Source of the DNA: a virus
Lineage: Duplodnaviria; Heunggongvirae; Uroviricota; Caudoviricetes
Length of the DNA stretch: 5,173 nucleotides
Virus record (IMG/VR): IMGVR_UViG_2740892270_000017
Direction: 5' to 3' (one strand)
Under the pieces are notes generated by a model. The model was given only the letters and a program-made list of their open reading frames with translations. It was not told the origin of the DNA and did no database searches. A program made the translations under genes and the position numbers. Of this stretch, positions 1 to 5,020 are shown one piece after another (position 1 is the first letter of the stretch; the number at the start of each line of letters is the position of its first letter).

Positions 1-17
1 ATATTGTAGTTAAGATT

Positions 18-675
18 TTACTTTAAACACTGCTCGGTTATGTATTGCTGAGCACCTTCAAGTTGGGCCTGCATCATTACCAGTCGTTCCCGGAGGGTGA
101 AATAATCCCGTTCAGCGGTGTCTGCCAGTCGGGGGGAGGCTGCATTATCCACGCCGGAGGCGGTGGTGGCTTCACGCACTGACTGACAGACTGCTTTGAT
201 GTGCAACCGACGACGACCAGCGGCAACATCATCACGCAGAGCATCATTTTCAGCTTTCGCATCAGCTAACTCCTTCGTGTATTTTGCATCGAGCGCAGCA
301 ACATCACGCTGACGCATCTGCATGTCAGTAATGGTTGCGTTCGCCAGCTTCAGTTCTCTTGCGTTTTTGTCGCGCTGCTCTTTGTAGGTAATGGCGTTAT
401 CACGGTAATGATTAACAGCCCANNNNNNNNNNNNNNNNNNNNNNNNNNNNNNNNNNNNNNNNNNNNNNNNNNNNNNNNNNNNNNNNNNNNNNNNNNNNNN
501 NNNNNNNNNNNNNNNNNNNNNNNNNNNNNNNNNNNNNNNNNNNNNNNNNNNNNNNNNNNNNNTCGCGCTGCTCTTTGTAGGCGATGGCGTTATCACGGTA
601 ATGATTAACAGCCCACGACAGGCAGACGATGATGCAAATAACCAGAGCGGAGATAATCGCGGTTACCCTGCTCAT
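18..675 (-). CDS. Rz: Rz i-spanin (inner-membrane spanin subunit); reading frame interrupted by N run 423-562 flanked by a 53-bp direct repeat
   Basis: Minus-strand translation 563..675 gives [37 protein letters not shown] (N-terminal TM anchor) and 18..422 gives [29 protein letters not shown]...TEQCLK; both match the lambda/21 Rz protein as I recall it. ATG at 675..673 overlaps the endolysin stop TGA 674..672 (ATGA). Stop TAA at 20..18. The two visible pieces are offset by 193 nt (out of frame), so the exact structure across the gap is unresolved. Confidence 0.8.
77..262 (-). CDS. Rz1: Rz1 o-spanin (outer-membrane lipoprotein spanin subunit), embedded in the +1 frame of Rz
   Basis: 61-aa [64 protein letters not shown]: signal peptide with lipobox VVGC, Thr at +2, proline-rich mature part, wholly inside Rz in another frame. 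This is the classic lambda-type Rz/Rz1 architecture. Confidence 0.85.
370..615. repeat. 53-bp direct repeat (370-422 and 563-615, 2 mismatches) flanking N run 423-562 inside Rz
   Basis: tcgcgctgctctttgtagGTAatggcgttatcacggtaatgattaacagccca (370-422) versus tcgcgctgctctttgtagGCGatggcgttatcacggtaatgattaacagccca (563-615). Both copies encode the [11 protein letters not shown](T/A)YKEQR segment of Rz. Confidence 0.8.
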
Positions 676-1169
676 TGTTGACCCCACAAACAGACTTCAC
701 GCTCAATCTCACGACGGGTCATCAGCCCTTTCCATTGCTTACCGCCAGCATATGTCCAGCGACGTAGCTGATCACATGCGCCTTTGATATCGCCCTGGTT
801 TATTTTGCGAAGAAGCGTCGATGTTCTGAAATTACCAGCACCCACGTTGTAAACGAACGAGTAAAGAGCGCCGCGCGTTGTTTCCGGTATATCGACTTTG
901 ATGTACGGGTTAATTTGTCTGGCGACAGTGGCAAGGTCTTTATTCAAGAGTGTTTTGCATTCTGCTTTGGTATACGTTTTACCGAGCATGATGTCTTTTC
1001 CTGTATGCCCGTGACATACAGTCCATACACCAACAATATCTTTGTATGGTATGTAGCTGACACCTTCCAGACCATCGTTACCACTTGGGCCAGTGATTAA
1101 CACTGATGCTATAGCAATTGCTCCGCCACCAATAGCAGCAGCAACGACTTTTCGTAATGATGGAGGCAT
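672..1169 (-). CDS. R: SAR endolysin (phage-21 R-type lysozyme, GH24 family) with N-terminal signal-anchor-release domain
   Basis: 165-aa [60 protein letters not shown]... has a Gly/Ala-rich weakly hydrophobic N-terminus (SAR domain) followed by Glu35, Asp44 and Thr50 at the positions of the T4-lysozyme-type catalytic triad. Start ATG 1169..1167 overlaps the holin stop TAA 1171..1169 (TAATG). Confidence 0.9.
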
Positions 1170-1384
1170 TATTCACCTCTCGCAGCCTTGCGCTTATCTT
1201 CTTTAATCTTGAAATAAAGGTTTGTCAGGTACGTCAGCAGGCCAAATACCAGACTACCCAGCACACCGATTGCAGCCCACTGTGACGGAGTTACTCTATC
1301 GAGCAACTGTAAAAACCAGTAGCCAGCACTGCCTGCGGAGGTGCCGTAGGCAATGCCTGTTGAAATTTTGTCCATGGATTTCAT
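1169..1384 (-). CDS. S: Class II holin / pinholin (S21-type) with dual-start motif MKSM (antiholin S71 / holin S68)
   Basis: Translation from ATG 1384..1382 gives [71 protein letters not shown] (71 aa), two TMDs and a charged C-terminus. Strong SD GGAGGTGAGG lies directly upstream (minus strand, 1397..1388). A second Met at codon 4 gives the classic dual start. A pinholin paired with a SAR endolysin is the established phage-21 arrangement. Confidence 0.9.
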
Positions 1385-1486
1385 AGCCTCACCTCCGCAC
1401 GGAACGGATGGCATAGTTATTATGTGTAGGCTTTCAGACACATCAATCAGAGCCTTAATTGATATATATGCTGGAGACGATGCAAT

Positions 1487-1510
1487 ATAAAAAGCTCGCC
1501 GTAGCGAGCT
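1487..1510 (-). terminator. Rho-independent terminator (minus strand) upstream of the holin; candidate tR'-like late terminator
   Basis: Plus 1493-1499 agctcgc pairs with 1504-1510 gcgagct (7-bp stem, loop cgta). On the minus strand the stem is followed immediately by TTTTTATATT (1492..1483). It lies about 105 nt upstream of the S start. Confidence 0.6.
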
Positions 1511-1576
1511 AATAAAATGTATTTCTCTGATATTATGTTTATTTGTATTAGCTCAGACTTGACATCACAGGTTTCG

Positions 1577-1603
1577 TATATAGAACATCATCAAATCTGT
1601 CAG
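1577..1603 (-). promoter_or_regulatory. Candidate promoter (possible late promoter pR'-like) between the second lipoprotein gene and the terminator at 1510..1487
   Basis: Minus strand: cTGACA (1603..1598), 15-nt spacer, TATATA (1582..1577). A transcript from here would reach the 1510..1487 terminator after about 70-80 nt, resembling the short pR'/tR' RNA of lambdoid phages. Weak match; no Q-binding site can be identified by eye. Confidence 0.2.
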
Positions 1604-1635
1604 TTTGCTATGAATGAGATATAGTAATTGAAGAG

Positions 1636-2031
1636 CTAACCTCGCATGTCAAAGCCAGATTTCTGAAAATCTCTGTAGACTTCCGGATTGTTGAAGGCCG
1701 GAAATTTGGCTTTATGAGCTGCGGACTTTATCGCTTCGCAATAGGCTTTATCACCGTTACTGGTAGATATTTTTAACGCCGTGCCATCCTGAGAGAATTC
1801 CATATGCAACCTGCATTTTTTCCCTTTCCAGTTATGCGGCTCATCAAGTTTGGCATTAATTGCAGCTCTGATTCCCCGCGCTTGCGCCCCCCATTCATCC
1901 TGATCATCCCAGCGTCCTGAACTGCAACTACCTGTAGCAGTAGTTTTGTGGCAATCTGAAGGGTGTAAAGGTGTGCATCCCGCAACAAAACCGACCCAAA
2001 AAGTCAACATAACGATTTTCTTTAATCCCAC
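1636..2031 (-). CDS. Lipoprotein with divergent TolA C-terminal (domain III)-like domain; paralog of 2182..2610
   Basis: 131-aa ORF, GTG start at 2031..2029 preceded by SD GAGGAG with 6-nt spacing. Signal peptide MGLKKIVMLTFWVGFVAGC with lipobox VAGC, Thr at +2. C-terminal part ...GKKCRLHMEFSQDGTALKISTSNGDKAYCEAIKSAAHKAKFPAFNNPEVYRDFQKSGFD aligns by eye with the TolA-III-like domain of the neighbouring gene (GK.C.L, GD..C, PEVY.F). Stop TAG 1638..1636. Confidence 0.75.
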   Translation of the reverse strand: MGLKKIVMLTFWVGFVAGCTPLHPSDCHKTTATGSCSSGRWDDQDEWGAQARGIRAAINAKLDEPHNWKGKKCRLHMEFSQDGTALKISTSNGDKAYCEAIKSAAHKAKFPAFNNPEVYRDFQKSGFDMRG

Positions 2032-2181
2032 TTCTTGCTCCTCAATCCATTAAAATCTCAGCAATAGTAGTTGTTACGTCCGCCACTGGCTCAGAGCTGA
2101 CTATCCGCTAAATTTAGCTCAGTGCCGTAGCTGTGTCAGAACAAACCTAAGCCGAAACCGTTTATTACAAAACAATAAATA

Positions 2182-2610
2182 TCAGGGTTTAAAATCCAGC
2201 ACCCCATTTTGAAATACTTTATATACTTCCGGCGAAGGGGGGGCAGGTATATCAGCATTCTTTATCGCATTCATCGCTTCACGACATAAATCGAGGTCTC
2301 CACTTTCTCTTTTAACCTCCAGTAGAAGGCCATTCGGGGCCATATGCATTCTCAGTGTACACTCTTTTCCTGAATACTTACTCGCATCCCCGAACTGTTT
2401 TTCGATGGCGCTCTTGATTTGATGGGCATACAGACGGATATCCTCACTAACATCAGAAGTACGTTCAGATGAACTCACATACTGTGTCTCTATTGCTTTA
2501 TCGGAGTAATATGATGTACGGTCATGATAATTTGTCGATACAGCATCAGTGCACCCGATAATAATCCCACTAATAATCAACGTAAGAATTGATGCGCTAC
2601 GAAAACCCAT
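2182..2610 (-). CDS. Lipoprotein with TolA C-terminal (domain III)-like domain; predicted outer-membrane-anchored periplasmic protein
   Basis: 142-aa ORF, ATG 2610..2608 with SD GAGG upstream. Signal peptide MGFRSASILTLIISGIIIGC with lipobox IIGC, Thr at +2. The C-terminal ~85 aa, YAHQIKSAIEKQFGDASKYSGKECTLRMHMAPNGLLLEVKRESGDLDLCREAMNAIKNADIPAPPSPEVYKVFQNGVLDFKP, closely resemble the C-terminus of E. coli TolA as I recall it (...AGQIKSAIESKFYDASSYAGKTCTLRIKLAPDGMLLDIKPEGGDPALCQAALAAAKLAKIPKPPSQAVYEVFKNAPLDFKP), including the conserved Cys pair. Stop TGA 2184..2182. Confidence 0.85.
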   Translation of the reverse strand: MGFRSASILTLIISGIIIGCTDAVSTNYHDRTSYYSDKAIETQYVSSSERTSDVSEDIRLYAHQIKSAIEKQFGDASKYSGKECTLRMHMAPNGLLLEVKRESGDLDLCREAMNAIKNADIPAPPSPEVYKVFQNGVLDFKP

Positions 2611-2639
2611 TTTTCCTCACATATGTCATATAGTAAAGG

Positions 2640-2669
2640 ATTATATATACCGTTGTTTTGGACGCTCAA
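2640..2669 (-). promoter_or_regulatory. Sigma70-like promoter for the TolA-like lipoprotein gene at 2182..2610
   Basis: Minus strand: -35 TTGAGC (2669..2664), 18-nt spacer, -10 TATAAT (2645..2640) inside GTATATATAAT, about 30 nt upstream of the ATG at 2610. Sequence match only. Confidence 0.45.
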
Positions 2670-2774
2670 ACAGCGAATCAGATCAAATAAAACGCACATT
2701 TGTTAACATTTACACAAAGTCTGCGTGGGATATTCTGAAAGAATATCCATAATGTGGAGAGAATCTATTGAAGT

Positions 2775-2877
2775 GCATGGTGCCGGGTGCCTCCCGGTGA
2801 ACAAAATGTTCGTGATACCTGTCGGCGACAGAAAAGGTTAATGGTATCACCCCACCGCACAGGGGGATTCACCATGC
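2775..2877. repeat. Highly structured imperfect palindromic element, ERIC/IRU-like intergenic repeat (tentative)
   Basis: An outer 8-bp stem, gcatggtg (2775-2782) with caccatgc (2870-2877), encloses four hairpins: ccggg/cccgg (2783-2797), gaaca/tgttc (2799-2811), gtgatacc/ggtatcac (2812-2850) and cccc/gggg (2850-2866). The right end GGGGATTCAC (2863-2872) matches the terminal motif of enterobacterial ERIC repeats as I recall it, and GGGGTGA is nearby on the minus strand. Confidence 0.3.
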
Positions 2878-3200
2878 AGGAGTTTTCTTAGCAAACTCAC
2901 TGCGCGCCCGGCAACTCCCAACCACATAAAATGCGGAGTTTGTGGCATTTATGCATATAACTCGCAGGAATTATCTTAAAAAACTGATGTCGATCCGGAT
3001 TAAAAAGAAGCAGGTCATCATCAGATGACTGGAAAAAAGGAAAACAAAAAATACTCATCATACAGTTTTGATTGCAGGGATGAGCCTGCTATGCACAATA
3101 TGCAGAATATAAGCAAGATAAAAATATGCAGGCATATTATTTCGGATCTTGTTATTAACACAACCTTTTTAATAATCATTTGGCATACAATAAACCAGCC

Positions 3201-3227
3201 CAAAAAGAACCGCCTAAACAGGCGGTT
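3201..3227 (-). terminator. Rho-independent terminator-like hairpin (minus-strand orientation)
   Basis: Plus 3208-3214 aaccgcc pairs with 3221-3227 ggcggtt (7-bp stem, 6-nt loop). On the minus strand the stem is followed by CTTTTTGGG (3207..3199). Confidence 0.5.
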
Positions 3228-3481
3228 GGTCAATACAAAGGATGCTTCGTCTTTATTATAGTAATCTGAGGCGTCGGGTGTCTTGTATCAGACAACATAT
3301 TGTCCCGCTAAACAGCGAATTACAAACCACCCTGCAATGATCTCTCATCTCATTTTATATGAGTTGACGACATCAGGATAACGCATCATCAGCCCCTGCC
3401 AAGAAATATCAAAACTCCCGCCAGCAATGTGTTATCACAATATTGTAAAAAAAACACAGCACCGAAACTATAACTGGTCTC

Positions 3482-3490
3482 TGTTATAAT
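3482..3490 (+). promoter_or_regulatory. Extended -10 promoter element TGtTATAAT on the plus strand (convergent with the Q-like gene)
   Basis: Perfect TGnTATAAT at 3482-3490 with an A8 tract 28-35 nt upstream (3447-3454, UP-like). There is no good -35, which extended -10 promoters do not require. The element sits in the 22-bp spacer of a 9-bp inverted repeat, aactggtct (3471-3479) with agaccagtt (3502-3510). Confidence 0.3.
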
Positions 3491-3496
3491 TTGGAG

Positions 3497-3575
3497 CAGA
3501 AAGACCAGTTGCCCAACTAGCAGCATTCTCCCCTGCTTTCCTGACGTAAAAAAACCGCATTAAGCGGTTTTTTTA
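3497..3575 (+). ncRNA. Candidate ~80-nt small RNA from the extended -10 promoter to the bidirectional terminator; antisense to the region just downstream of the Q-like gene
   Basis: Predicted start about 7 nt downstream of the -10 (around 3497); end at the T7 tract of the 3545-3577 hairpin. No ORF with an RBS lies in between. Prediction only. Confidence 0.2.
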
Positions 3576-3577
3576 CG
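3545..3577. terminator. Strong bidirectional intrinsic terminator (perfect 14-bp palindrome) about 80 nt downstream of the Q-like gene
   Basis: cgtaaaaaaaccgc (3545-3558), loop attaa, gcggtttttttacg (3564-3577). The GC core ccgc/gcgg is flanked by A7 on one side and T7 on the other, giving a U-tract after the stem on either strand. Confidence 0.65.
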
Positions 3578-3654
3578 ATGTCCATGTCTGCAATCCGCCT
3601 CGCGATACAGCTTTGCGAAGCATAGCAAAATTGAAGCAGTTTATACGTAAGAAA

Positions 3655-3994
3655 TCAAGCCATTTTCTCAGCAAATGATTCACGCATGGGAATATATAGG
3701 GCATACTCAGCAACAGCTAACCAATTAGCAATCCGTTTTTCGCATGTGCTAAAACACCACTCTGGGTGTGCATCATTTAGCAATTCAGCCATTTTGCGCT
3801 TAGTCATCCCCCGCCCTTCATAGCGTTGCCGGAGAATGCAAATCAATCCTGGATGCTCTGCCAGCACCTCACTTATGACTCGATCAATACATAACGCCTC
3901 TGCATCAGTACAATGCGCCAGCCAGCTCTTTTGCTTGCCGTTGATCATCTCTCGCAAAAACGCTTCCAGCTCAGCTTTCTCTATTCCCGCTTTT
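3655..3994 (-). CDS. Q-like late-gene regulator (putative antiterminator), C-terminal 113 aa visible; N-terminus lies in N run 3995-4215
   Basis: Visible translation ...KAGIEKAELEAFLREMINGKQKSWLAHCTDAEALCIDRVISEVLAEHPGLICILRQRYEGRGMTKRKMAELLNDAHPEWCFSTCEKRIANWLAVAEYALYIPMRESFAEKMA, stop TGA 3657..3655. It is the last gene after the nin-type genes and before the moron/lysis region, which is the Q position in lambdoid phages, and has an HTH-like segment (GMTKRKMAELLN). The assignment rests on synteny; I cannot confirm the family from memory. Confidence 0.45.
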
Positions 3995-4215
3995 NNNNNN
4001 NNNNNNNNNNNNNNNNNNNNNNNNNNNNNNNNNNNNNNNNNNNNNNNNNNNNNNNNNNNNNNNNNNNNNNNNNNNNNNNNNNNNNNNNNNNNNNNNNNNN
4101 NNNNNNNNNNNNNNNNNNNNNNNNNNNNNNNNNNNNNNNNNNNNNNNNNNNNNNNNNNNNNNNNNNNNNNNNNNNNNNNNNNNNNNNNNNNNNNNNNNNN
4201 NNNNNNNNNNNNNNN

Positions 4216-4451: not shown

Positions 4452-5020
4452 NNNNNNNNNNNNNNNNNNNNNNNNNNNNNNNNNNNNNNNNNNNNNNNNN
4501 NNNNNNNNNNNNNNNNNNNNNNNNNNNNNNNNNNNNNNNNNNNNNNNNNNNNNNNNNNNNNNNNNNNNNNNNNNNNNNNNNNNNNNNNNNNNNNNNNNNN
4601 NNNNNNNNNNNNNNNNNNNNNNNNNNNNNNNNNNNNNNNNNNNNNNNNNNNNNNNNNNNNNNNNNNNNNNNNCGCCGTATCCCGGGTTCTACGAGTCGCA
4701 ACGGTGTTAAGGTATTGCTCTGCGGCATCACTCAGGGCTGGCGTGTGTTCCCGACCAACTGATTCGCACAGGTAATCAACGAAACCAGACAGCAGTTCTC
4801 GTTCGCGAGGCGTGATCGCCCCACCGACCGGAGTCCAGTAATCGAATCCCAGTTGCAGGAGTTTGAAAAAACGCTTGTGGAATGCGTAGTTACGCACACG
4901 CTTAAAGTCTGCGTGTATCCACTCACCTATTTTGATTTGATGCAGAAAATCGCAACTCTCCGGCGTCGCCGGGAGAAGTAAACCAGAAGAGGTTTGTTTG
5001 ACCAGTTGTATATGCGCCAT
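4442..5020 (-). CDS. Lambdoid nin-region protein (possibly YbcN/DUF1367-like); N-terminal 116 aa visible (4673..5020), remainder masked
   Basis: ATG at 5020..5018; visible translation MAHIQLVKQTSSGLLLPATPESCDFLHQIKIGEWIHADFKRVRNYAFHKRFFKLLQLGFDYWTPVGGAITPRERELLSGFVDYLCESVGREHTPALSDAAEQYLNTVATRRTRDTA. If the N run has its true length, the frame ends at TAA 4444..4442 (192 aa), overlapping the expected YbcO-like start. Family assignment is from position next to the YbcO-like gene, not verified. Confidence 0.55.
   Translation of the reverse strand: MAHIQLVKQTSSGLLLPATPESCDFLHQIKIGEWIHADFKRVRNYAFHKRFFKLLQLGFDYWTPVGGAITPRERELLSGFVDYLCESVGREHTPALSDAAEQYLNTVATRRTRDTAXXXXXXXXXXXXXXXXXXXXXXXXXXXXXXXXXXXXXXXXXXXXXXXXXXXXXXXXXXXXXXXXXXXXXXXXXXFT

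What the first reader, a model, noticed from the sequence alone, without database searches (positions are those of the whole stretch)
370..675. Rz interrupted by a gap flanked by two slightly different copies of the same 53-bp Rz segment
Seen in sequence: 370-422 and 563-615 are direct repeats with two substitutions (GTA versus GCG, Thr versus Ala in Rz), 193 nt apart, so out of frame with each other, with N run 423-562 between them. Inference, two possibilities: (a) a scaffolding or collapse artefact in which two contig ends from near-identical lysis cassettes of different lambdoid prophages overlap; (b) a real ~193-bp tandem duplication spanning the R/Rz junction, in which case an intact 154-aa Rz would start at about 482 inside the masked region and the 563..675 piece would be a truncated extra N-terminal fragment. 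The two mismatches favour recombination or collapse between different alleles over a recent duplication.
Basis: partly seen in the sequence, partly recalled or inferred. Interest (0 to 1): 0.45.

Follow-up and report, generated by a model that had tools for sequence, protein, structure and literature searches.

The report
Scaffold-gap false duplication inside prophage Rz
The "interrupted" Rz lysis gene is almost certainly an assembly artefact: two contig ends that overlap by 53 bases were placed on either side of a run of N, so an ordinary intact prophage spanin gene looks duplicated and broken.

Summary
Window 370-422 and 563-615 are a 53-nt direct repeat with two mismatches (TA at 389/390, CG at 582/583), and each copy abuts the N run 423-562.

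It is most likely not a biological feature.
- The three N runs in the window do not keep true length. Against complete E. coli genomes they stand for -53, 247 and 258 bases, so they are scaffold gaps.
- Removing the N run plus one repeat copy (193 nt) makes the window collinear with the best-matching complete genomes listed. It restores a normal 154-aa lambda-type Rz with embedded Rz1.
- Five sister draft assemblies break in the same R/Rz region, but at different positions and with different N lengths.
- A gap-free contig with the same gene neighbourhood has a normal Rz.
- The two contig ends carry different allele types. Contig A's end matches another lambdoid prophage; contig B's end matches a phage-plasmid R-Rz junction. 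Each end stops exactly at a base that separates these types, as expected for graph branch points between paralogous lysis cassettes.
- None of 185 other loci holding this segment has two copies.

One residual oddity is that the R/Rz gap is always over-sized.

Verdict: artefact (about 0.88). Interest is low.

The parts
370..422 (.). Repeat copy 1: the last 53 nt of contig A (window 1-422). Carries TA at 389/390.
   Evidence: 100% identical to the L059/L060-type Rz allele over 318-422.
423..562 (.). Run of 140 N: a scaffold gap placeholder, not 140 real bases.
   Evidence: In complete genomes the two flanks overlap by 53 nt, so the true gap is -53.
563..615 (.). Repeat copy 2: the first 53 nt of contig B (window 563-3994). 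Carries CG at 582/583.
   Evidence: 563-716 is 100% identical to the R-Rz junction of phage-plasmid pG749_3 (L061) and of IMG/VR locus L190.
563..675 (-). Rz (i-spanin) 5' part: codons 1-37 plus 2 nt. The start ATG (675-673) overlaps the R stop codon (ATGA).
18..422 (-). Rz 3' part: codons 21-154 plus the stop codon.
   Evidence: The merged 154-aa protein hits PF03245 Phage_lysis at 181 bits.
77..262 (-). Rz1 (o-spanin lipoprotein), embedded in the +1 frame of Rz.
   Evidence: PF06085 at 69.5 bits; ORF listed.
672..1169 (-). R endolysin (RrrD-type lysozyme), 165 aa.
   Evidence: PF00959. The exact protein is on record in 76 blocks of the collection.
1169..1384 (-). Class II holin (EssD / P21 S type), 71 aa.
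   Evidence: PF04971; annotated essD in EC2.
333..422 (.). Terminal tract of contig A that switches from the EC2 (Rac-type) allele to the L059/L060 allele.
   Evidence: All 7 mismatches of 1-422 to EC2 lie at 333-379. L059 has no mismatch from 318 to 422.
563..858 (.). Terminal tract of contig B that is phage-plasmid (L061) type, apart from a small patch at 717-754. From 859 onward the sequence is EC2 type.
   Evidence: Sister drafts L052 and L055 differ from the window only at 717, 723 and 726.
3995..4215 (.). Second scaffold gap: 221 N standing for 247 real bases in EC2.
4452..4672 (.). Third scaffold gap: 221 N standing for 258 real bases in EC2.

Best explanation
The repeat is a false duplication created by scaffolding. 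The strain carries a Rac-type prophage remnant with the gene order DUF1367, DUF1364, DUF1133/Q-like, two TolA-C-domain genes, S, R, Rz/Rz1, then trkG. It most likely also carries at least one more lambdoid lysis cassette, a phage-plasmid-type R-Rz and probably an L059-like prophage. The conserved R 3' end and Rz 5' half are therefore multi-copy with a few variant sites, and a short-read assembler cannot walk through them. Contig A (from the trkG side) and contig B (from the S-R side) each ran or were extended into this region along a different allele path. Each stopped at a branch point. The ends overlap by 53 nt but differ at two bases, so they were not merged. The scaffolder joined the contigs in the right order and orientation but left a gap of estimated length (140 N) between them. 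The real locus has one uninterrupted 154-aa Rz with embedded Rz1. Shown here: the overlap, the non-length-true N runs, the allele types of the ends, the single-copy state elsewhere, and the variable gaps in sister drafts. Inferred: that paralogous cassettes exist in this particular genome, and which assembly step produced the overshoot.
For: (1) Window 1-1400 spans only 1207 bp (1400 minus 193) in all 30 best complete E. coli genomes listed. The segments map to EC2 with a 53-nt overlap.
(2) The other two N runs (221, 221) stand for 247 and 258 real bases with 100% identical flanks, so N runs here are estimates and not masks.
(3) Merging the ends gives an intact 154-aa Rz (PF03245, 181 bits) with Rz1 (PF06085) embedded.
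(4) The exact-R-protein and Rz-fragment look-ups found sister drafts with an N run in the same R/Rz region: GCA_001256155.1, 100% identical to the window wherever both have bases, plus GCA_001249775.1, GCA_001261195.1, GCA_001255735.1 and GCA_001256935.1. The contig ends and N lengths differ (249, 253, 256, 93, 364). One of them shows an analogous 12-nt overlap across its gap.
(5) L056, a gap-free contig with the same neighbours, has a normal 154-aa Rz directly after R.
(6) Contig A's end at 333-422 is L059/L060 type and contig B's end at 563-716 is L061 phage-plasmid type. L061-type Rz diverges completely from contig A just left of 370, which is exactly where contig B stops. The base after contig A's end (equivalent to 616) is the C/T site that separates L061 from all other alleles compared. 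The sister contig B ends at 584, 617 and 638 also sit next to such sites.
(7) No locus among 185 holding this segment has two copies. No genome contigs locus has two matches of the shared 30-mer. No IMG/VR contig has two copies 118-208 nt apart start-to-start, although more than 120 contigs hold the 30-mer.
(8) This class of artefact is described in the literature. [quoted passage not shown] Another reports that SOAPdenovo2 inserts gaps between overlapping contigs (PMC5368935).
Against: Ordinary gaps in these drafts are sized within about 40 nt of the truth, but the R/Rz gap is over-sized in all six assemblies (+193, +182, +105, +99, +89, +71). I cannot explain this mechanistically without knowing the pipeline. 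The window and its 100%-identical sister agree on about 250-260 nt between the same anchor points. Neither merged Rz protein (Thr32 or Ala32) exists anywhere in the 15-billion-protein collection. No complete genome matches the merged DNA above 96.9%. The true single-copy sequence of this lineage has therefore not been seen directly. The presence of paralogous cassettes in this genome is inferred, not observed.
Confidence: 0.88

Rival explanations
1. A real partial tandem duplication at the R/Rz junction. A phage-plasmid-type R 3' end and Rz 5' fragment would be followed by a second R 3' fragment and a complete Rz, produced by illegitimate recombination between two lysis cassettes. The N run would hide the junction, and the short-read assembler would break there because the two copies are near-identical.
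For: The R/Rz gap is over-sized relative to a single-copy reference in all six draft assemblies. The window and its identical sister L050 agree within 11 nt on the anchor-to-anchor distance. The two copies differ at two bases, which an exact graph overlap would not show. The single-copy merged allele has never been seen.
Against: The excess lengths (71 to 193) are mutually inconsistent for one fixed duplication. N stays near 250 in three sisters although the contig ends move by up to 97 nt, so N does not measure the distance. A different lineage (L051) shows the same kind of overlap across its gap at another position with another apparent period, which points to the pipeline rather than to biology. 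No gap-free sequence anywhere shows two copies. The junction would have to coincide with the exact homology boundary between two Rz types. The other N runs in the same scaffold are demonstrably not length-true.
Confidence: 0.07
2. The locus is single-copy, but it is a genuine chromosomal recombinant. The phage-plasmid-type R 3' end and Rz 5' part would be joined to an L059-type tract and then to EC2-type Rz. Only the last 21 nt of contig B (563-583, including CG) would come from a second element. This is a sub-variant of the artefact reading: the duplication is still false, but the mosaic at 333-858 is real.
For: The sister assembly L050 has the same mosaic and its contig B ends at 584, immediately before the CG/TA site. 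Both contigs run continuously from EC2-type sequence into the patch.
Against: The fine-scale mosaic draws on three allele types. The patch at 717-726 differs among sister drafts. No complete genome matches the merged DNA above 96.9% and the merged Rz protein is absent from the protein collection. All this fits equally well with paralogues being merged by bubble collapse in the assembler.
Confidence: 0.3

Closest known systems
False duplication at a scaffold gap (overlapping contig ends separated by N)
   Same: The repeat copies abut the N run on both sides. Removing the N run plus one copy restores the reference structure. The break lies in a multi-copy region with variant sites. [quoted passage not shown]
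   Different: The two copies differ at 2 of 53 bases because the ends follow different paralogous alleles. That is why no overlap merge happened. The assembler and pipeline are unknown.
Lambda-type two-component spanin Rz/Rz1 in an S-R-Rz/Rz1 lysis cassette
   Same: The merged Rz is 154 aa and matches PF03245. It has an N-terminal hydrophobic segment. Rz1 (PF06085) is embedded in the +1 frame and carries the sequence VVVGC. The Rz start overlaps the R stop codon. The cassette lies downstream of a class II holin and a lysozyme. Background on spanins: PMC5295617 and PMC6139136.
   Different: Nothing functional differs. The apparent interruption is in the assembly and not, as far as can be told, in the gene.
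Rac prophage remnant next to trkG (E. coli K-12 rzpR/rzoR-trkG; gene order from my own knowledge)
   Same: The window is collinear with a locus that ends in Rz followed by trkG and ynaK in strain EC2. A 101-aa 3' fragment of this Rz is called next to trkG in 219 blocks of the collection.
   Different: Here S, R and a full-length Rz are retained, unlike the truncated remnants.

Membership tests
Scaffold-gap false duplication | Both repeat copies directly abut the N run: one ends where it starts, the other starts where it ends. | tested here: met
   Copy 1 ends at 422 and N starts at 423. N ends at 562 and copy 2 starts at 563.
Scaffold-gap false duplication | N runs in the scaffold are placeholders whose length does not equal the real sequence. 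| tested here: met
   N/true lengths are 140/-53, 221/247 and 221/258 against EC2, with 100% identical flanks at the last two gaps.
Scaffold-gap false duplication | Deleting the gap plus one copy restores collinearity with gap-free sequences and an intact gene. | tested here: met
   The span is 1207 bp in all 30 best complete genomes listed. The merged ORF is a 154-aa Rz matching PF03245.
Scaffold-gap false duplication | Independent assemblies of the same locus lack the duplication. | tested here: met
   The gap-free contig L056 has a normal Rz. Sister L050, 100% identical to the window wherever both have bases, has a plain gap without flanking repeat. None of 185 loci has two copies.
Scaffold-gap false duplication | Reads span a single copy, and read depth shows a collapsed repeat. 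| not testable with these tools
   No reads are available and the source assembly was not identified.
Real tandem duplication | Defined sequence between the copies and a novel junction. | not testable with these tools
   The interval is entirely N.
Real tandem duplication | The same structure is reproducible in independent assemblies of the lineage. | tested here: not met
   Sister drafts imply extra lengths of +182, +105, +99, +89 and +71, and their N runs do not track the contig ends.
Lambda-type Rz/Rz1 spanin | i-spanin matching the Rz family, with the o-spanin lipoprotein gene embedded in another frame, downstream of the endolysin. | tested here: met
   PF03245 at 181 bits, PF06085 at 69.5 bits. 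Rz1 (77-262) lies inside Rz (18-675, merged). R lies at 672-1169.

The most novel reading that the evidence does not exclude
The N run hides a genuine recombination joint. A phage-plasmid-type R 3' end and Rz 5' fragment would be fused, by illegitimate recombination, upstream of a second partial R end and a complete chromosomal Rz. That would leave a real partial tandem duplication of roughly 100-190 bp at the R/Rz junction of a Rac-type prophage in this E. coli lineage.
Probability: 0.07. Interest if true: 0.2.

Novelty: not a real feature. Interest (0 to 1): 0.05.

Why it matters
It matters only for data quality. Annotating this scaffold as it stands would give a truncated Rz fragment plus an N-terminally truncated Rz, and would suggest a disrupted spanin or a duplication where the locus is most likely an ordinary intact S-R-Rz/Rz1 cassette. 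The contig ends next to the gap (333-422 and 563-858) may be chimeric with other lysis cassettes of the same genome. The Thr32/Ala32 difference and the local SNP pattern should therefore not be used for typing or for recombination inference.

Tried and rejected
(1) N runs as length-preserving masks of real sequence: rejected, because two of them differ from the true length by 26 and 37 nt with perfectly identical flanks.

(2) Finding the source contig in genome contigs with the shared 30-mer: not found. There were 47 loci, none with two matches, and many are lambda control-DNA contamination.

(3) Finding the merged single-copy allele. No complete E. coli genome exceeds 96.9% over 608 nt. Contig A's end matches at best 97.5% and contig B's end at best 98.7%, the latter on phage-plasmids. 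Neither merged Rz protein is in the 15-billion-protein collection.

(4) Scans for two copies of the 30-mer separated by 88-178 nt in IMG/VR: zero hits, with a positive control of more than 120 single-copy contigs.

(5) Using N-run lengths of sister assemblies to decide between 0 and 193 extra bases: inconclusive. Neither value fits all six, and N does not track the contig ends.

(6) A comprehensive test for a tandem copy in all 5,426 complete E. coli genomes could not be built with the BLAST tool. Only the listed best hits were checked.

Full report
**Observation.** Window 370-422 and 563-615 are a 53-nt direct repeat with 51/53 identity and a start-to-start spacing of 193. No shuffle of the window gives two matches. 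The two mismatches are adjacent: TA at 389/390 and CG at 582/583. Copy 1 ends on the last base before the run of 140 N (423-562), and copy 2 begins on the first base after it. On the minus strand the repeat is Rz codons 21-37 plus 2 nt. The difference is Ile31 (silent) and Thr32 versus Ala32.

**What the N runs are.** The window holds three N runs: 140, 221 and 221. The whole window is collinear, on the minus strand, with a locus present in many complete E. coli genomes, for example strain EC2 (NZ_CP058571.1). The gene order there is DUF1367, DUF1364, DUF1133 (Q-like), two TolA-C-terminal-domain genes, essD, rrrD, rzpD, then trkG and ynaK.
- Segment-by-segment mapping shows that the two 221-N runs stand for 258 and 247 real bases, with 100% identical flanks.
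- The 140-N run stands for -53 bases, meaning the flanks overlap.
- The N runs are therefore scaffold gaps of estimated size, not length-true masks, and the 193-nt spacing has no physical meaning by itself.

**Single copy elsewhere.**
- In all 30 best complete genomes listed, window 1-1400 spans 1207 bp, exactly 193 less.
- Merging the two ends gives an intact 154-aa Rz (PF03245, 181 bits). Rz1 (PF06085) is embedded in it. The Rz start overlaps the stop codon of the R lysozyme (PF00959), which follows a class II holin (PF04971).
- The 30-mer shared by both copies occurs once per locus in 47 loci of the species-representative genome collection.
- It also occurs once per locus in more than 120 IMG/VR contigs.
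- Scans for two copies separated by 88-178 nt found nothing.
- Among 185 loci held locally that contain the 53-nt segment, none has two copies.

**Sister assemblies.** All of them have an N run in the R/Rz region.
- GCA_001256155.1 (L050) is 100% identical to the window wherever both have bases. Its contig ends lie at window-equivalent 323 and 584, with 249 N and no flanking repeat.
- The other sisters end at 259/617 (253 N), 259/638 (256 N) and 325/784 (364 N).
- A more distant lineage (L051) shows an analogous 12-nt overlap across 93 N, with the downstream contig starting in a different allele.
- A gap-free metagenome contig with the same neighbours (L056) has a normal 154-aa Rz directly after R.

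**Allele structure of the two ends.**
- Outside 333-858 the window is virtually identical to EC2. Of 24 mismatches, 22 lie inside that interval.
- Contig A is EC2 type up to 332. It then matches, without mismatch, the Rz of another lambdoid prophage type (L059/L060) up to its end at 422.
- Contig B is EC2 type down to 859. It is then essentially the R-Rz junction of a phage-plasmid type (pG749_3, L061, and IMG/VR locus L190). It is 100% identical to these over 563-716, including CG at 582/583, C616 and A637.
- L061-type Rz becomes unalignable with contig A immediately left of position 370. That is exactly where contig B stops.
- The base that would follow contig A's end (equivalent to 616) is the C/T site that separates L061 from every other allele compared.
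- The sister contig B ends at 584, 617 and 638 also sit next to such discriminating sites.
- This is the signature of assembly-graph branch points between paralogous lysis cassettes.
- E. coli genomes carry a median of 2-3 copies of this region, and up to 15.
- The merged mosaic is not found above 96.9% in any of 5,426 complete genomes. The merged Rz protein, in either version, is absent from the 15-billion-protein collection. This suggests that at least part of the terminal tracts is chimeric.

**Mechanism (inferred).** The conserved R 3' end and Rz 5' half are multi-copy in this strain. The two contigs entered the region along different allele paths and stopped at branch points. They overlap by 53 nt but differ at two bases, so no overlap merge was made. 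The scaffolder joined them correctly in order and orientation and wrote an estimated gap. This class of artefact is documented. [quoted passage not shown] Another reports gaps inserted between overlapping contigs by a short-read scaffolder, and repeat-derived errors at contig ends (PMC5368935).

**What remains unexplained.**
- Ordinary gaps in these drafts are sized to within about 40 nt (excess -37, -26, -1, +12, +29). Their true lengths are curiously uniform (245-258).
- The R/Rz gap is over-sized in all six assemblies (+193, +182, +105, +99, +89, +71).
- A fixed real duplication of 193 bp does not fit these values either.
- In three sisters N stays near 250 although the contig ends move by up to 97 nt. 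N therefore does not measure the distance there.
- A plausible cause is end extension with paralogue reads after gap sizing. This cannot be tested without the reads or the pipeline.
- This is the only point in favour of a real extra segment. I leave about 7% for a genuine partial duplication or recombination joint.

**Comparison and verdict.** The genes are ordinary members of the lambda-type S-R-Rz/Rz1 lysis cassette (spanin background: PMC5295617, PMC6139136). They sit in a Rac-type prophage remnant next to trkG. The "interruption" is best filed as a scaffold-gap false duplication, which is not a biological feature. Interest is low.

Noticed in passing
window 2182-2610 (-) and 1636-2031 (-): Two adjacent small ORFs (142 and 131 aa) have lipoprotein-like N-termini (…IIIGC, …FVAGC) and a TolA C-terminal domain (PF06519; 82.6 and 54.6 bits). 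They sit in the moron position between the Q-like gene and the holin. In EC2 one is annotated as a TolA C-terminal-domain protein and the other as a partial tolA pseudogene. A prophage-encoded decoy of TolA domain III is conceivable, for example against Tol-dependent phages or colicins, but this was not examined.
   Followed up: partly
window 2721-2907 (-): Rfam match to the gammaproteobacterial sRNA STnc100 (RF02076; 86.6 bits against a gathering score of 47). It lies in the roughly 1-kb non-coding stretch between the Q-like gene and the TolA-domain genes.
   Followed up: no
window 18-323 (-); loci L063-L071: The 101-aa 3' fragment of this Rz is called as a gene directly upstream of trkG in 219 blocks of the collection. 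The upstream neighbours vary widely (DUF1627, RecT, DUF3799, SieB, DUF1133). These are many independent deletion variants of Rac-type remnants that all keep the Rz 3' end and trkG.
   Followed up: partly
loci L002-L048: The lambda-type Rz 30-mer occurs in assemblies of many unrelated taxa (Kitasatospora, Cohnella, Flavobacterium, Pedobacter, Enterococcus and MAGs). It is often on contigs of about 3.5 kb or about 48.4-48.5 kb. This looks like lambda control or spike-in DNA contaminating public assemblies.
   Followed up: no
window 3995-4215 and 4452-4672; gaps in L052 and L055: Ordinary scaffold gaps in this batch of drafts fall at different places in different isolates. Yet they all stand for 245-258 real bases, with N runs of 221-274. 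The uniform true size is unexplained.
   Followed up: partly
window 717-726: Sister assemblies that are otherwise identical in R differ from the window only at 717, 723 and 726, where they carry the EC2-type bases. This is a micro-patch of allele switching next to the gap. It is consistent with paralogue mixing, or with very local gene conversion.
   Followed up: partly
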